Source: Escherichia phage ETEC-TG
Direction: 5' to 3' (one strand)
DNA: 64,000 bases
Sequence record: OR786310.1
The position numbers were made by a program. Shown here in pieces: positions 42,001 through 48,000 of the stretch (positions are counted from its first letter, which is position 1; every line of letters begins with the position of its first letter).

Positions 42001-45000
42001 CCGCTTTCCCGCCATTCACATATTTGCAGATGTATTCTATCGCACGTAGTGTCTCTTTGTCAACAAAAATTTGATCAGACGTTGCGAGCGGGTTATTAAG
42101 AAGATCACTGCAATCACGAACAAGCAGTGCTTTCTTATTAAACAAATTACTTAAGAACAGTAACTTCGCCTCTTCTTCTGTTATGTGCAGAAGGCTAGGA
42201 TCGGAGCCAGCTATTCCTATTATACAATCAAACAAGCTTTCTTTACTATCAGAAAGTTCTTGAAAATGGTTTAAAAGCCAATCTTCTCCTAGACACCAAC
42301 ATTTAAACATTTCCAGTTTATCTCGGAGGGTCATATTCTCTAAAGTAAGAGCAATCTCTTTTTCAATATGGTTTACACAAATTTGACGAAATTCGTTAGG
42401 TTTTACGAGTCCCGTTTGATAGCACTCATCTATACCGCTTCTTCCGATAGCTATTGTTGCTACACCCATCAATCCTCCTTATAAATGGCTTCCCTGCCAC
42501 ATTATTAAATAAACACTTCAGTAATCAGTTTAGACAAACGTCCACGTTTATTATCGTCCGTTGTCAGTTCAACATATCCAATAAAATCTACAATTGGCTC
42601 ACGAACACCTTCTTCATTCTCTGGATATAAAAGTTCCAAAATTTGATGCAGACCATTGCTACGTTTTTTAATTGCATATGTCTGGCGAACATCGCCTAAT
42701 ACAATAACATGCGTATTAATACCTGCACGTTCAATAAGAAGTTTAAGTGTTTCTGTTGACATAAGTTGTGCTTCGTCAATAATGACGATTGTATTATCCA
42801 GGGTAGCCCCCAACAAATAGTTAGGAATATTCAATTCGATCTTACCTGATCCAATATCGTTTTCCAATTTGTTGGCTGTCATGAATTGCTGGAAAATACG
42901 TTTTGTAGATTCATAGTGTGCTGCTAGTTTATCTGTTTTATCCCCAGACAAGAAACCAATCTGGTCATCTCCGACTTCAGTAGGGTTCTTGATAAAAAGT
43001 AGTTTACGGAAGTCTCCTGAACGAAGCATCTGCAAAGCTTTCCATAAAGCAACAGAGGTTTTACCAGTCCCTGCCGGAGCATTTACAACAGTCAGATCAT
43101 TCCAAATCATGCTTTGAACAATCTTATTTTGGTCCCCTTCAGGCATAAATTCATCTAAACGGTAATCGTCATTACCTACCGCTTTTGCTGCATAACGGCT
43201 TTCAATCTTTGCTGAATTAGCCAGTTTCTGCCGTTGTGTTTTAGCTGCGGTTTTATTTCCCATAGTAGCACTCCTTTTAGAAGGGGCCGAAGCCCCTTTA
43301 TTAGTTGTAAGCATCTAAAGTTCCAGAAGTCAGAACTTTAATTACTCGTTCAGCACGGTTTGGCGTCTGGCTATACCATCGGCTTTTACGCATGTTTTTA
43401 CCTGCTTGAGTATAATATGCATTGCTGATTAAAGTCAAGCTATTTTGAAACCCTTCAGCACCTTTTAACCCCAACTGGAAAACCATGTTGATTATTCCCA
43501 ATTTACGAGTATCACTAACCTTATCATAGATTGGTGATAAGATAGTACTGTTTTTTATGTCTCTCTTCACTTTTGCAACATCGTCAGCAAAGATTTGACG
43601 GGCTTCTTTTTCTGTGATAACTCCATTAGTCTTACGACCAAGAAGATTATCTAAGATTTGAATAGCCTTTGCTTTATCTTTTATTTTAGTCAGAAGGTGT
43701 CCTATACCGACTGTCCAATAACCAAGATGGTCTTGATAAACAGTAAGCTTCAGTCCTTCATCGACTCGTAGCATATCAAACTCATCTACTACTTTAGCCA
43801 TTTACTTCCTATTCGTCGTCTCCTACTCCGTGATCCAACTCGTTAAACAACAGATGTTCTGGAGAAGTTTCACGTTTTGGTTTCGTTTTCTTTATGTTGG
43901 ACTTCAGCTCATTTGCCAAAGCACGAGAAAAGATCTTACGTTTCTGTTTACTTTTCATAATTGTTACTCCGCAATTTGAGCCATGAGATCACGCAGTTCG
44001 GTAAAACCGCCTACGTATGTTACCTCCCCGTTCACTTCAGACAGAATTTGTGGAAATGTGCGTGGAGGAACTCCGGTAAGATCAACAACTGTTTTAGTCA
44101 TTGATTCTAAATCATAGTCTTGATCAAGACTTAAATATTCAAACTGTTTATTGCGCATGGTTAATAGTTGTTTTGACATTTCGCAAAATTGACAGTTAGG
44201 TTTACCAAAAATTACAAATTCCATTACCTCTCCTTATTAAGTAATACTGCTAAAGACTGTTCAATACCTTTATTTAAATCTGATTTTGTAAGATAGTGAC
44301 TGGTTACTAGTTGTGACTTCACCGGACGTGCTGCTGGAGCATTATAGGTTGAAGCTGATACCGCCGATATCTTAACAGGTTCTGGCATCTGTGTCAAGAT
44401 CTTTTCCGCAAACTCCGCCCAAGAAATAAAATGGCTTCCTGCAAAATGGTAAGTCTTAACAGACCTTGACCAACCTGTTTTTAATACTTCAAAAATAGCT
44501 TCTGCTAAATCTGGAGCATATGTTGGACAAGAGAACTGATCAGCAACAATAATAAAATCACGTTGTCCATCATTATAGCGAGACAACATCGTTTTTAGAA
44601 AGTTATTTCCAAATTCGCTATATACTGAGGCTGTTCGAATAATATATGCATTTGGGTTAACTCCTCGCACCATTTTTTCACCAAGTTCTTTCGTATACCC
44701 ATAATTGTTTATTGGGTTAGGTGTAGTATCTTCAAAAATAGGATGAGAATAATTAAAAATATAGTCTGTAGAAATATGCACAAAATCAATTTTAAGTTTG
44801 CTGCACACTGCCGCAATATTTGCAGGTCCATACGCATTAACAGCCAAAGCAGTAGCAAAATCATGTTCCGCTTTATCTACAGCCGTATAAGCAGCGCAGT
44901 TAATAACACCGTCTACATAATCTTCAACAATAGCGTTTCGCACAGCTTCAAAATTTGTAATATCTACACGTTCTTTAGGATAAATTAAAGATACATTTGA

Positions 45001-48000
45001 AGGAACCACTTTACGTAAAGCTTGTCCCAGTTGTCCATTACCACCCAATACCAGATATGTTAGCATACACCCTCACTACGCAACTGTTGAAAAGATTTAG
45101 CCATTGCATCTTTTGTTGATAAGATAGGTTTAAAATCTTCATCAAAAATCATATCAAAGCCCCAATCGATCCCTATATCAGGATCATCCCAACGTAAACT
45201 TTGTTCGCTAGAAGGGTCGTATGGAGTTGTGCATTTGTATTCAAAGATAGCATCCATACTCAAAACTATAAAACCATGTGCCAAACCAGGTGGAAGCCAA
45301 AATTGCGTATGGTGTCGTGCACGAAGAACAACACCGTCCCAAGCACCGTAAGTTGGACTATCTTTACGTAAATCTACAGCGAAATCCAATACTTCTCCAC
45401 TTACACAACGAACAAGCTTACCTTGCGGGTTGTTTGTTTGGAAGTGCATTCCTCGCAAAACACCGAAGTTTGATTTAGACATGTTATCTTGAACGAAAGT
45501 TTGTCTACCAATAATATCTTCGTATTTTTGTTCATTGTATGTTTCTAAAAAGAAACCACGATCATCTTTATAAACGTCTGGTTTGATAATTACCGCACCT
45601 TCAATTTTTGTTTTTTCTACTTTCATTTTCTCTCCTTACCAGACATGTTGAGAAATAATAGTTTCCGTTTTAATGTTATATTTTTCAAGTAGCTCTGCAT
45701 AGGCTTCTTTTGCATTCTCATTTAATTGCTCAAGATCTACAGCTACGCTTCCTTCTCCGCCTTCTAAATAAATACCATATATGCAATAAGACTCATCAGC
45801 ATCGTAGAAAGGAGAGATGCGACTTAAGTCCAGACCTTCTTGTAAGAACCAGTTAAAATCTCCGTCAAATTCTTCTTCAATTCTAGGATCTTCTCCTACA
45901 GCCTCTTCCCACTTATTAAAAGGTGCACCCTGTAACATACGCCATTCGATATCAATACCCATTTTTCATCTCCTCCTCTTGAGCAGCTTTAATAATTGCT
46001 TCATAAATATCGTAAGCAATGCCTCCACAACATCTAGCTTCGAAAGCTATTGCTTCTGCAATGTGGTCTGTTAGTTCTCGTGGAATTCGGACATACTCTT
46101 TTTCACTCTCCATCTTCTACCTCCGACCCTGCTTTTTCAAATACTACTACTCGTCCTTCACCATGACAATTCAGGCAAGGAAATGTTACCATAATTTCCA
46201 CTTCCATCTGTCCAGTCCCACCACACACAGGACAAAAAATAAGTTTTTCAGCCATTATTCCTCCTTAATTATTTCAAACTTGGCAACACCATTTACAATA
46301 ATATGACCACAAGACATAACTCCTAGCCAAGGATCGCCGTTTTTCTTCAGGCGTTTACCGAATACATCACAAAAACCATTCTTCATTTCGGAGGCTTCAT
46401 AAGAAGCCCCTTTGTCAAAAACGTCTTTGAATGTGTCGATTATACCAACACATCTCAAAATCATTAGAAGTCAAGCTCCTCATCATCAGAGAGATCTTTG
46501 TTAGCTGAATTCAATTTGTAATTAGTTAACTGAATCTCTTGGGCTGCTGACTGAATCAAATCAGGATTCAACCATTTTTCCATCCAAGCTAAAGGACTAT
46601 GTTTAGGTGCTTTAAACTTGGCTTTCATTTTCAATCGACGATAAATAGGAGCAGCATTGAAATAAACCCACTGTTTAGACAATTCGGCGTTAAGACCTAC
46701 AATAAAACGACCTTCACTAAACAGGTAGTCACACCACTGTTCCTCTTGTTCAACAACAGTGTCGAGGATCAAAGTCAACTCTTCAATATTGTCTTCGTAA
46801 ATTTTACGCCAAATTGGGTCATGCATCAATGCATCAATTACAGCATAATCCATCTTAACATGCAAGATTTCATCTAGCATAATTTTCTGGATCAGCTTAC
46901 AAGCCCCAACAAACAATTGTTGTTCTGCCATAGCAAAAGTAGCAGAGAAGGAAGATATAAACTGAATACCTTCTAATCCAATCAGGGCTACCATCCCTTT
47001 AAGAATCAGCAATCGAAGTTCATCGTTAGCTTCAATCAATCCTAGAGCATACTTATGACCAGCTTCTTCCAACTGACCCATGATATCAGCAATGATACCC
47101 ATACGATTGAAAATTTTATCATTAATCATAATCTGATTGATGACTTCAATTGGATCTGGAGTACATTGACGGATTATTTCAGAATACGTTAACGCATGGA
47201 GAACTTCCATTTCACTCTGCTTCATCATCATAGCACAGGCTTCATTGTTACTCAAGAATGGAGAGAACAAAGTGATGATTGATTTTGCAAGAGAATCATT
47301 TTCCCATTGGAACGATAAGTTTTTAATCATAACATCGTAGTTGTTTTTAGAACAAGCTACGAAATCTTTACGTGTCTGATCCAAGTTAACTTCGTTTTCA
47401 TCCCAATCTTGTGCTTTTTGAAGTTTGTAGAGTTTGTGCATTTCTGGATAAGTTACGTTAACAGAATCAAAGATCCCTAATTGCTCCCCCAAAAATACTG
47501 GATATTTTCCTGTTTTGTAAACTTCGTTGTGTAAATTAATTGCTGCCATTTAAAATTCTCCTCGATAAAAAGGGGCCGAAGCCCCTTTATATTTAGCCTC
47601 GAAATACTGTTTTTGTTTCCGCCAGGTGCCAATAGAAATCCGCCTTGTTTACAAGAGTGTTGTACACCTCTGGATAAAAATGTTCTTCCTCTTTGTAACG
47701 ATCCGCTGTTTCCCTGATTGACTTAGCTTTATCCTTTAGCCAAGCGAAGTGTGCCTCTTCCTCTGTAGCGAAGTAGCCTAAATGCTTACCTTTACTTCCA
47801 GAAGCTTTTGCATAAATCTTACCATCTTTCCTAACATGTGCTCCTAGTAAGTATTTTCTTTCATACCTTTTAGCATAACTTAAGAGTGTATTTATGTAAG
47901 GAGGAACAAACCTACAATATTCAGGACAATAAACAGTATTTCCTTCAAGAACAAGATCTTTATCTAAAACAAAGCCTTCCACGCTATGTTCTTGATACCA

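What the first reader, a model, noticed from the sequence alone, without database searches (positions are those of the whole stretch)
44224..45626. Phage-encoded dTDP-L-rhamnose pathway genes (rmlD, rmlC) beside the nrd cluster
Confident RmlC and RmlD homologs overlap by a few nucleotides and lie directly beside glutaredoxin, nrdB and nrdA. In a nucleotide-metabolism context a dTDP-sugar pathway could feed DNA hypermodification or remodel host surface polysaccharide. No rmlA or rmlB is present in this window.
Basis: partly seen in the sequence, partly recalled or inferred. Interest (0 to 1): 0.5.

Follow-up and report, generated by a model that had tools for sequence, protein, structure and literature searches.

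The report
Phage rhamnose genes: half an operon
Two intact genes for the last two steps of dTDP-L-rhamnose synthesis sit in the nucleotide-metabolism block of a phAPEC8-like E. coli phage; they are already annotated in close relatives, the first two pathway genes are a dispensable cassette that is missing here, and what the phage uses the sugar for is still unknown.

Summary
Window 45060-45626(-) is rmlC and 44224-45066(-) is rmlD. Both score above NCBIfam equivalog cut-offs, keep their catalytic residues, overlap by 7 nt, and are start/stop-coupled to glutaredoxin.

The window is a Phapecoctavirus (phAPEC8-like E. coli myovirus), 99% identical to phages dw-ec and anhysbys. The genes are already annotated in over 100 GenBank records. 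The DNA-glycosylation idea is published (Olsen 2020).

What I add:
- phAPEC8 and phi92 carry rmlB-rmlA-rmlC-rmlD. The window lacks exactly the 1,876-bp rmlB-rmlA cassette, with the junction in a 5-nt GGAGA Shine-Dalgarno microhomology.
- About one third of Phapecoctavirus records share this junction. One phage has a separate internal rmlAB deletion. Klebsiella phage KP2025 also has rmlCD only.
- rmlCD is always intact, with dN/dS about 0.07 with or without rmlAB.
- E. coli nearly always has rffG-rffH (5309 of 5426 genomes) but rfbC/rfbD in only about 44%. The host can therefore supply dTDP-4-keto-6-deoxyglucose while the phage secures the last two steps.

The likely consumers are glycosyltransferases that co-occur with rmlCD but lie outside the window. 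DNA hypermodification is disfavoured: no hydroxymethylase or TET was found, and the sister genus is restriction-sensitive. The finding is ordinary and already known; the acceptor is open.

The parts
45060..45626 (-). rmlC, dTDP-4-dehydrorhamnose 3,5-epimerase (188 aa)
   Evidence: It matches TIGR01221 at 225 bits (cut-off 156), PF00908 at 1.1e-66 and phrog_8784 at 4e-93. Its best solved relative is Salmonella RmlC 1DZR (4e-56). His61, Lys70, Tyr130 and Asp173 align with catalytic His63, Lys73, Tyr133 and Asp170. It is intact in 17 of 17 close relatives.
44224..45066 (-). rmlD, dTDP-4-dehydrorhamnose reductase (280 aa)
   Evidence: It matches TIGR01214 at 239 bits (cut-off 224) and PF04321 at 2.8e-73. 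Its best solved relatives are Bacillus anthracis RmlD 3SC6 (3e-44) and 1VL0. It has G8xxG11xxG14, S99-T100-D-Y and Y122xxxK126. It belongs to a phage-only clade at 51-99% identity; cellular homologs are at most 44% identical.
45627..45638 (-). Junction where the rmlB-rmlA cassette is absent. On the coding strand it reads TAA (stop of the upstream ORF), GGAGA (Shine-Dalgarno), GAAA, then the rmlC ATG.
   Evidence: phAPEC8 has ...TAAGGAGA|ACTGATG before rmlB and ...GCGGAGA|GAAAATG before rmlC. The window reads ...TAAGGAGAGAAAATG, so the 1,876-bp difference has its end points inside the shared GGAGA. The same junction is found in all 10 rmlAB-minus phages examined.
43964..44224 (-). Glutaredoxin/thioredoxin-fold gene, start/stop-coupled to rmlD
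   Evidence: It matches PF00462 at 1.8e-9 and phrog_22. There is a TAATG overlap with the rmlD stop. The rmlD-grx order is the same in phAPEC8, phi92, phiWec179 and KP2025.
45636..45962 (-). Conserved 108-aa ORF of unknown function that always precedes the rml block
   Evidence: It matches phrog_15453 at 6.8e-73. An ORF of the same 327-nt length lies upstream of rmlB in phAPEC8 and phiWec179, one small ORF further upstream in phi92, and directly upstream of rmlC in KP2025.
46464..50504 (-). Context: nrdB (46464-47549), HNH homing endonuclease (47593-48249) and nrdA (48261-50504), co-directional with the rml genes
   Evidence: nrdB matches PF00268; nrdA matches PF02867, PF00317 and the ATP-cone. 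The HNH gene matches phrog_953 at 1.5e-56. No terminator-like site lies on the minus strand between 51.2 kb and 41.27 kb. The best promoter-like site is at 51264-51237, but the number of promoter-like sites is not above chance.

Best explanation
rmlC and rmlD are working enzymes, not a remnant. Together they convert dTDP-4-keto-6-deoxy-D-glucose into dTDP-L-rhamnose. This phage has no RmlA or RmlB of its own, so it takes the 4-keto intermediate from the host. Almost every E. coli makes that intermediate with RffH/RffG for enterobacterial common antigen, and many also make it with RfbA/RfbB. Only a minority of E. coli carry rfbC/rfbD. Carrying rmlC-rmlD therefore guarantees a dTDP-L-rhamnose supply in any host, while rmlB-rmlA is a redundant accessory cassette that is gained and lost by recombination at its Shine-Dalgarno boundaries. 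The genes are co-directional with nrdAB and glutaredoxin and are start/stop-coupled to glutaredoxin, so they are probably made during the replication phase. The sugar is most likely consumed by the phage's own soluble glycosyltransferases. These number four genes in Phapecoctavirus and at least two at the same locus in KP2025, always next to primase/helicase and outside this window. I infer that they build a rhamnose-containing glycan on a non-DNA acceptor, either a phage (virion) protein or a cytoplasmic-face envelope glycan precursor. What is shown: gene identity, intactness, purifying selection, the cassette polymorphism, the host gene frequencies, and the co-occurrence with the GTs. What is inferred: host supply of the intermediate, use by the GTs, and the acceptor.
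For: rmlC and rmlD are full length in 17 of 17 close genomes. Mean pairwise dN/dS is 0.069 among 10 rmlAB-minus phages and 0.060 among 5 rmlAB-plus phages, and it is 0.11-0.25 against phi92, phiWec179 and KP2025. For the cassette: phAPEC8, phi92 and phiWec179 have rmlB-rmlA-rmlC-rmlD-grx. The window lacks exactly 1,876 bp at a GGAGA microhomology, and 10 of 10 minus phages share that junction. Sixty-four records have RmlC at >=95% identity, but only 42 have rmlAB DNA at >=95%. DIJ07P2 has an independent ~800-bp deletion inside rmlA/rmlB with rmlCD intact. Klebsiella phage KP2025 (RmlC 61% identical) has rmlCD only at the same position. anhysbys (minus) and BI-EHEC (plus) differ by 2 nt in rmlCD. 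rmlAB is 85-92% identical between phAPEC8 and phiWec179, while the flanks, including rmlCD, are 55-73% identical. For host supply: rffG-rffH is in 5309 of 5426 complete E. coli genomes, rfbC in 2348 and rfbD in 2386. For the GT link: four GT genes are in anhysbys. GT gp013 is >=95% identical in 64 records and 60-80% in 55, matching RmlC at 64 and 65. KP2025 has both rmlCD and GTs. On a distant 135-kb contig, an RmlB-like 4,6-dehydratase sits directly beside the GT homologs. The GTs have no transmembrane-like segment. The gp015 model (pLDDT 89) is a GT-A fold nearest to GlfT2, chondroitin polymerase, polypeptide GalNAc-T1, TarP/TarS, Listeria rhamnosyltransferase RmlT and SpsA-dTDP. gp015 has weak hits (E about 1e-7) to cluster-F mycobacteriophage GTs, and virion glycosylation has been reported for cluster-F phages Che8 and Rita (PMC11256854).
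Against: There is no biochemical or genetic data for any of these phage proteins. RmlD clears its equivalog cut-off by only 15 bits and is 31% identical to E. coli RfbD, so a 6-deoxy-L-talose-forming reductase cannot be excluded from sequence alone. Two thirds of relatives keep rmlAB under similar constraint, so host supply may often be limiting. K-12, on which several of these phages were isolated, has its own rfbC and rfbD, so rmlCD is not needed for supply in that host. The link to the GT cluster rests on co-occurrence and on one adjacency in a distant contig. The GT genes are outside the window, and their presence in this phage is inferred from 99%-identical relatives. Fold searches do not discriminate between acceptors. 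blastn may miss divergent rfbC/rfbD alleles, so the 44% figure is a lower bound.
Confidence: 0.55

Rival explanations
1. DNA hypermodification. In this reading, dTDP-L-rhamnose is transferred by one of the phage glycosyltransferases onto a modified base in phage DNA, as T4 glucosylates hydroxymethylcytosine, to evade restriction.
For: The genes sit in the nucleotide-metabolism and replication region, and the GT cluster sits next to primase/helicase, DNA polymerase and an adenine methyltransferase. GT gp015 has weak hits to Pfam TAGT (E 1e-3, below cut-off) and to phrog_842, beta-glucosyl-HMC alpha-glucosyltransferase (5.8e-6), each over about 40 residues around the DxD motif. The idea was proposed by Olsen et al. 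2020.
Against: No dCMP/dUMP hydroxymethylase, TET/JBP or dCTPase-type exclusion enzyme is annotated in anhysbys, and none was found by Pfam on the window ORFs tested. A ThyX is present. The ORF annotated 'Dcm' has no Pfam methyltransferase hit. phi92-like phages, which have the same operon and GTs, are exceptionally susceptible to type I, II and III restriction systems (PMC8594841; also PMC10844046). To my knowledge, no dTDP-sugar-dependent DNA glycosylation is known. In the viral fold search a TAGT-domain protein appears only at rank 46 with a low TM-score.
Confidence: 0.12
2. Host envelope remodelling. In this reading, the phage GTs add rhamnose to LPS core, O-antigen, ECA or another surface glycan at the cytoplasmic face, masking receptors so that superinfection or progeny trapping on debris is reduced.
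For: The two GT-B paralogs resemble GT4/RfaG-type enzymes (Pfam Glyco_trans_1_2 and Glyco_transf_4, weak; one record labels them RfaG). These phages use surface glycans and the LPS outer core as receptors (PMC8594841; PMC11990801). RmlC and RmlA are closest to enterobacterial surface-polysaccharide enzymes.
Against: The GTs have no membrane segments, and no Wzx/Wzy or Gtr-type partner genes are annotated. A strictly lytic phage has little time to replace existing outer-membrane glycans. There is no experimental hint of this in the papers read.
Confidence: 0.22
3. Nucleotide-pool control. In this reading, the enzymes drain the host's dTDP-4-keto-6-deoxyglucose into dTDP-L-rhamnose, the known feedback inhibitor of RmlA-type thymidylyltransferases. 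That would shut down dTTP consumption by host glycan synthesis and spare dTTP for phage DNA.
For: The genes are embedded between nrdAB, glutaredoxin and ThyX and are start/stop-coupled to glutaredoxin. An rmlCD-only layout fits a role that needs no transferase. Feedback inhibition of RmlA by dTDP-L-rhamnose is established biochemistry (from my own knowledge, not tested here).
Against: Two thirds of relatives also carry rmlA, which consumes dTTP. The strict co-occurrence with glycosyltransferases points to use of the sugar. K-12 hosts already make dTDP-rhamnose.
Confidence: 0.08
4. Decaying remnant. In this reading, loss of rmlB-rmlA left rmlC-rmlD as functionless leftovers.
For: Half of the ancestral four-gene block is missing.
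Against: Both ORFs are full length in all 17 close genomes, and dN/dS is 0.069 in the minus lineages, the same as in the plus lineages. Catalytic residues are kept. The divergent Klebsiella phage KP2025 keeps the same two-gene layout.
Confidence: 0.03

Closest known systems
rmlB-rmlA-rmlC-rmlD block of Escherichia phage phAPEC8 and phi92 (Stephanstirmvirinae)
   Same: The position is the same (small ORFs, rml block, glutaredoxin, lysozyme, PhoH, downstream of nrdA/nrdB). RmlC and RmlD are 98-100% identical to those of phAPEC8-type phages and 54-62% identical to those of phi92.
   Different: The window lacks rmlB and rmlA (1,876 bp). This state is shared with anhysbys, dw-ec, ESCO37, ZCKP1, nepoznato and others. 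It was noted in print for ESCO37 only (PMC10269720).
Bacterial dTDP-L-rhamnose pathway (RmlABCD; E. coli rfbBDAC and the ECA paralogs rffG/rffH)
   Same: The enzyme families and catalytic residues are the same. Phage RmlC is 50% identical to K-12 RfbC and 55-57% identical to Pectobacterium, Klebsiella and Serratia enzymes.
   Different: Only the last two steps are encoded. RmlD is 31% identical to E. coli RfbD and belongs to a phage-only clade. No rhamnosyltransferase or polysaccharide export genes are nearby.
Virus-encoded glycosylation with virus-made nucleotide sugars (mycobacteriophage Che8 virion glycosylation; chlorovirus and mimivirus rhamnose pathways)
   Different: No glycosylated virion protein has been reported for these coliphages. 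The giant viruses use UDP- or GDP-linked rhamnose, not dTDP-linked (from my own knowledge). The resemblance is functional analogy, not membership.
T-even phage DNA glucosylation (hydroxymethylcytosine plus alpha/beta-glucosyltransferases) and TET-associated glycosyltransferases
   Same: Sugar-related genes lie in the replication and nucleotide region, with weak local similarity of one GT to TAGT and phrog_842.
   Different: No hydroxymethylase or TET was found, the donor would be a dTDP sugar rather than a UDP sugar, and relatives are restriction-sensitive.

Membership tests
RmlC, dTDP-4-dehydrorhamnose 3,5-epimerase (TIGR01221 / PF00908) | Full-length match to the equivalog model above its curated cut-off | tested here: met
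   The score is 225.4 bits against a cut-off of 155.75, covering residues 2-181 of 188. PF00908 gives 224 bits.
RmlC, dTDP-4-dehydrorhamnose 3,5-epimerase (TIGR01221 / PF00908) | Catalytic His-Asp dyad, Tyr acid and Lys (His63, Asp170, Tyr133, Lys73 in Salmonella RmlC) | tested here: met
   His61, Asp173, Tyr130 and Lys70 align with these residues in the 1DZR alignment.
RmlC, dTDP-4-dehydrorhamnose 3,5-epimerase (TIGR01221 / PF00908) | Double (C3 and C5) epimerisation of dTDP-4-keto-6-deoxyglucose | not testable with these tools
   This needs an enzyme assay. Homologous mono-epimerases exist (for example 4HMZ, listed).
RmlD, dTDP-4-dehydrorhamnose reductase (TIGR01214 / PF04321) | Full-length match to the equivalog model above its curated cut-off | tested here: met
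   The score is 239.1 bits against a cut-off of 224.05, a narrow margin. PF04321 gives 247 bits. The enterobacterial model NF007440 gives only 118 against a cut-off of 308.
RmlD, dTDP-4-dehydrorhamnose reductase (TIGR01214 / PF04321) | GxxGxxG NAD(P)H motif and the SDR Thr/Tyr/Lys catalytic triad | tested here: met
   G8-G11-G14, T100 (in STDY) and Y122xxxK126 are present and align with the same motifs in 3SC6 and 1VL0.
RmlD, dTDP-4-dehydrorhamnose reductase (TIGR01214 / PF04321) | Stereochemistry of C4 reduction (L-rhamnose rather than 6-deoxy-L-talose) | not testable with these tools
   Sequence alone does not decide this; product analysis is needed.
Complete phage-encoded dTDP-L-rhamnose pathway (RmlA+B+C+D), as stated for phapecoctaviruses by Olsen 2020 | RmlA (glucose-1-phosphate thymidylyltransferase) and RmlB (4,6-dehydratase) are encoded | tested here: not met
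   tblastn finds no RmlA or RmlB hit in the window or in anhysbys 1-144,999. The window's closest relatives are absent from the 48 records that hold rmlAB DNA.
Phage DNA glycosyl-hypermodification system (T4-like or TET/TAGT-like) | An enzyme that creates the hydroxymethyl acceptor base (dCMP/dUMP hydroxymethylase or TET/JBP) | tested here: not met
   None is annotated in anhysbys. Pfam on ten candidate window ORFs gave only Sir2, DUF7275/7277 and ThyX. Not every small ORF was scanned.
Phage DNA glycosyl-hypermodification system (T4-like or TET/TAGT-like) | A DNA-specific glycosyltransferase | tested here: inconclusive
Phage DNA glycosyl-hypermodification system (T4-like or TET/TAGT-like) | Modified DNA that resists restriction | not testable with these tools
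   Literature only: the sister genus (Bas60-62) is exceptionally restriction-sensitive (PMC8594841). I found no data for Phapecoctavirus itself.
Virus-encoded virion glycosylation (Che8-like) | Phage-encoded glycosyltransferases homologous to those of glycosylated phages | tested here: inconclusive
   gp015 hits cluster-F mycobacteriophage GTs at 24-28% identity and E 1e-6 to 1e-7, over about 57% of its length.
Virus-encoded virion glycosylation (Che8-like) | Glycans covalently attached to capsid or tail proteins | not testable with these tools
   This needs glycoprotein staining or mass spectrometry of virions.

The most novel reading that the evidence does not exclude
These coliphages rhamnosylate their own DNA at sparse or sequence-specific sites, using dTDP-L-rhamnose and one of the four GTs on an acceptor other than hydroxymethyl-pyrimidine. 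Such a modification would be too sparse to block the restriction systems tested so far and would be a new chemistry of phage DNA modification. A less radical alternative is the first virion protein glycosylation in a phage of a Gram-negative host, fed by a half-pathway that parasitises the host's ECA precursor.
Probability: 0.1. Interest if true: 0.8.

Novelty: already known. Interest (0 to 1): 0.27.

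Why it matters
The genes are long annotated, and the same speculation about DNA glycosylation is in print, so the finding is not a discovery. The pattern does show which half of the pathway the phage cannot do without. rmlC-rmlD is core, under strong constraint, and always accompanied by phage glycosyltransferases. rmlA-rmlB is a swappable cassette that the host can replace. That makes the open question testable with natural isogenic pairs, for example anhysbys versus BI-EHEC, and with defined host mutants: what does a widespread, therapeutically used group of broad-host-range coliphages do with rhamnose? If the answer were virion glycosylation, it would bear on the immune recognition of therapeutic phages. 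If it were DNA modification, it would be new chemistry.

Tried and rejected
- An IMG/VR scan for RmlC relatives returned only two loci, too few for population analysis. I used GenBank phage records instead.
- Sequence searches of three of the four GTs (gp013, gp015, gp016) against PDB chains found nothing meaningful.
- The promoter scan was not above chance (41 sites against 35.5 +/- 5.7), so the transcription unit is only tentatively bounded.
- The phAPEC8 genome announcement is not held.
- The Durham-collection DNA-modification paper does not cover Stephanstirmvirinae.
- The later BASEL paper says nothing on rhamnose.
- I considered and rejected the 'remnant' reading.
- I rejected the idea that rmlA/rmlB simply lie elsewhere in the genome.
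- I also rejected a single-clade origin of the minus state. rmlCD haplotypes of plus and minus phages are interleaved, although the junction is identical. This fits one deletion (or empty-site) allele spreading by recombination.
- I could not decide whether the empty site or the four-gene state is ancestral. The DIJ07P2 internal deletion shows loss does happen, and the high rmlAB identity between divergent backbones shows that transfer happens too.

Full report
**What is in the sequence.** The region holds two minus-strand ORFs at exactly the reported coordinates. The 188-aa product of 45060-45626 matches Pfam dTDP_sugar_isom (1.1e-66), NCBIfam rmlC (225 bits, cut-off 156) and PHROG 8784. The 280-aa product of 44224-45066 matches RmlD_sub_bind (2.8e-73) and NCBIfam rmlD (239 bits, cut-off 224).

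In the alignment to Salmonella RmlC (1DZR), the phage residues His61, Lys70, Tyr130 and Asp173 fall on the catalytic His63, Lys73, Tyr133 and Asp170. RmlD has the GxxGxxG dinucleotide motif, the STDY threonine and the YxxxK pair.

The two genes overlap by 7 nt (ATGCTAA). The rmlD stop overlaps the start of a glutaredoxin gene (TAATG). Upstream lie four small ORFs, then nrdB, an HNH homing endonuclease, nrdA, and further on a ThyX. All are co-directional, and no terminator-like site lies on that strand between about 51.2 kb and 41.27 kb, although the promoter scan is not above chance. 'Directly beside' holds strictly for glutaredoxin only.

**Where the window comes from.** The 2.1 kb around the genes is 99.6% identical to Escherichia phage dw-ec and 99.1% identical to phage anhysbys. 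It is 97-99% identical to dozens of other Phapecoctavirus genomes (phAPEC8-like myoviruses, subfamily Stephanstirmvirinae). The window corresponds to roughly 43.5-105.6 kb of anhysbys. The genes are annotated as rmlC and rmlD in many of these records.

Olsen et al. [quoted passage not shown] Maffei et al. 2021 noted that the phi92-like sister genus is exceptionally susceptible to restriction-modification systems despite this 'putative dTDP glycosylation machinery' (PMC8594841). A 2023 paper recorded that phage ESCO37 lacks the thymidylyltransferase and dehydratase genes (PMC10269720). The finding and its favoured interpretation are therefore already in the literature.

**The missing half of the pathway.** phAPEC8, phi92 and phiWec179 carry rmlB-rmlA-rmlC-rmlD-glutaredoxin. 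The window differs from phAPEC8 by the exact absence of 1,876 bp holding rmlB and rmlA. The end points fall inside a 5-nt GGAGA that is the Shine-Dalgarno sequence in front of rmlB and of rmlC, so the empty site still gives rmlC a normal ribosome-binding site.

tblastn finds no RmlA or RmlB in the window or in 145 kb of anhysbys. All ten rmlAB-minus phages I fetched have the identical junction. Of 64 phage records with RmlC at 95% identity or more, 42 hold rmlAB DNA at that level, so about one third lack it.

The state is not confined to one clade of rmlCD haplotypes. anhysbys (minus) and BI-EHEC (plus) differ at 2 of 1,404 positions. Between phAPEC8 and the more distant phiWec179, rmlB-rmlA is 85-92% identical, while the flanking DNA, including rmlC-rmlD, is 55-73% identical. 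The cassette therefore moves between backbones.

Two further cases show it is dispensable. Phapecoctavirus DIJ07P2 has an independent ~800-bp deletion that removes most of rmlA and the end of rmlB. Klebsiella phage KP2025, whose RmlC is only 61% identical, has rmlC-rmlD alone at the same position.

**rmlC-rmlD is core, not a leftover.** Both ORFs are full length in all 17 close genomes. Mean pairwise dN/dS over the two genes is 0.069 among minus phages and 0.060 among plus phages. The 99 variable sites reduce to at least 86 synonymous and 25 non-synonymous codon changes. Against phi92, phiWec179 and KP2025, dN/dS is 0.11-0.25 with synonymous sites near saturation.

RmlD belongs to a clade found on 140-157-kb phage-sized contigs (51-99% identity), followed by a sharp drop to 44% or less for cellular proteins. 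RmlC's nearest cellular relatives are enterobacterial, at 55-57% identity. These are long-resident phage genes.

**Why two genes can suffice.** This step is inference resting on established pathway knowledge. RmlA and RmlB make dTDP-4-keto-6-deoxy-D-glucose. In Enterobacterales the paralogs RffH and RffG make the same compound for enterobacterial common antigen.

In 5,426 complete E. coli genomes, the K-12 rffG-rffH segment is found in 5,309. rfbC is found in 2,348 and rfbD in 2,386; blastn may miss divergent alleles. Nearly every host can therefore deliver the intermediate, but fewer than half can finish the pathway. A broad-host-range phage that needs dTDP-L-rhamnose must bring rmlC and rmlD and can afford to lose rmlA and rmlB. 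That about two thirds of relatives keep the cassette suggests extra flux is often useful.

**What the sugar is for.** In anhysbys, four adjacent genes (gp013-gp016, 10.3-13.4 kb) lie between the primase/helicase and a SleB-type endolysin, about 30 kb outside the window. They are:
- two GT-B paralogs (PHROG 7162, weak Pfam GT1/GT4 hits);
- a GT-A-like protein, gp015 (PHROG 2456);
- a fourth GT, gp016 (PHROG 14179).

Their distribution mirrors RmlC. gp013 is 95% or more identical in 64 records and 60-80% identical in 55, against 64 and 65 for RmlC. KP2025 has rmlCD plus two GTs at that locus (gp016-like and one GT-B). On a distant 135-kb contig, an RmlB-like 4,6-dehydratase lies directly beside the GT homologs and the primase/helicase.

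None of the GTs has a membrane-spanning segment. A confident model of gp015 (pLDDT 89) is a GT-A fold nearest to GlfT2, chondroitin polymerase, polypeptide GalNAc-transferase, TarP/TarS, the Listeria rhamnosyltransferase RmlT and dTDP-bound SpsA. This fits a dTDP-sugar donor and a glycan or protein acceptor but is not specific. gp015 also has weak sequence hits to cluster-F mycobacteriophage GTs, a group in which virion glycosylation has been reported for Che8 and Rita (PMC11256854).

**Weighing the readings.** DNA hypermodification has three points in its favour: the genomic neighbourhood, a sub-threshold TAGT hit, and a PHROG 842 hit over about 40 residues. Against it:
- No hydroxymethylase or TET/JBP was found in the annotation of the 99%-identical genome or by Pfam on the candidate window ORFs.
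- A ThyX is present.
- The ORF annotated 'Dcm' has no methyltransferase domain hit.
- The sister genus is restriction-sensitive.

I rate DNA hypermodification at about 0.1. Envelope remodelling and virion or protein glycosylation both fit soluble GTs and a dTDP-rhamnose supply, and I cannot separate them. Together with 'another non-DNA acceptor' they carry most of the probability. A pure pool-control role (dTDP-rhamnose as feedback inhibitor of RmlA) fits the nrd/grx context. It fits poorly with the frequent presence of rmlA and the tight association with GTs. A decaying remnant is excluded by the selection data.

**Verdict.** This is a known feature of a well-sampled phage genus, so novelty is 'already known' and interest is modest. 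What I add is the anatomy of the polymorphism: a core rmlCD, an accessory and mobile rmlAB cassette bounded at Shine-Dalgarno sequences, and the host-complementation logic. Natural plus/minus pairs and defined host mutants make the unresolved acceptor question directly testable.

Noticed in passing
window 47593-48249 (-): A 218-aa HNH homing endonuclease (phrog_953, 1.5e-56) is inserted between nrdB and nrdA. It is absent at this spot in anhysbys, phAPEC8 has a different 408-nt ORF there, and phi92 has an HNH gene of the same length.
   Followed up: partly
window 46103-46255 (-): A 50-aa ORF carries two CxxCxGxG motifs (DnaJ-type zinc finger). It is one of four small conserved ORFs between nrdB and the rml block, and phi92's counterpart is annotated as a putative DnaJ chaperone.
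   Followed up: no
window 31207-32022 (-) and 34277-35218 (-): There is a Sir2-family protein (PF02146, 1.3e-22) and a DUF7277+DUF7275 protein. The neighbouring ORF at 33204-33929, annotated 'Dcm / DNA methyltransferase' in anhysbys, has no Pfam hit.
   Followed up: partly
L002 (phAPEC8) versus L008 (phiWec179), rml region: The operon is mosaic. rmlB-rmlA is 85-92% identical at the nucleotide level between the two phages, but the flanks, including rmlC-rmlD, are only 55-73% identical. This implies recent transfer of the rmlAB cassette between divergent backbones.
   Followed up: partly
L022 (Phapecoctavirus DIJ07P2, OZ035771.1) 2177-2185: An independent ~800-bp deletion removes the N-terminal ~240 codons of rmlA and the last ~26 codons of rmlB, with a 9-nt overlap between the flanking alignment blocks. 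rmlC and rmlD are intact.
   Followed up: yes
L026 (Logan SRR24146891_1208) 2667-5319: On a distant 135-kb phage contig, an RmlB-like NDP-sugar 4,6-dehydratase (TIGR01181, 171 bits, below cut-off) lies directly upstream of homologs of GT gp015 and the GT-B paralog, next to primase/helicase and PolA.
   Followed up: partly
GenBank records MG065650, MG065645, MG065656, OP562383, OR584014: Records labelled Campylobacter, Acinetobacter or Pseudomonas phage carry rml or glycosyltransferase genes like those of E. coli Stephanstirmvirinae. ABPW7, B15 and PsgM04F are 93-99% identical at the DNA level. A145 and C3 match at the same protein identity as the phi92-like phages. The host labels look doubtful.
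   Followed up: no
window about 30-31 kb: GC skew flips from positive to negative and the coding strand switches from plus to minus at about 30-31 kb. This is a divergent transcription boundary of the genome.
   Followed up: no
L029 (KP2025) 4409-5951 and L028 (FKP3) 5409-6784: The glycosyltransferase cluster varies in size between lineages. Phapecoctavirus has four genes. KP2025 has two at that locus (gp016-like plus one GT-B). FKP3 has two there plus a gp015-like gene elsewhere.
   Followed up: partly
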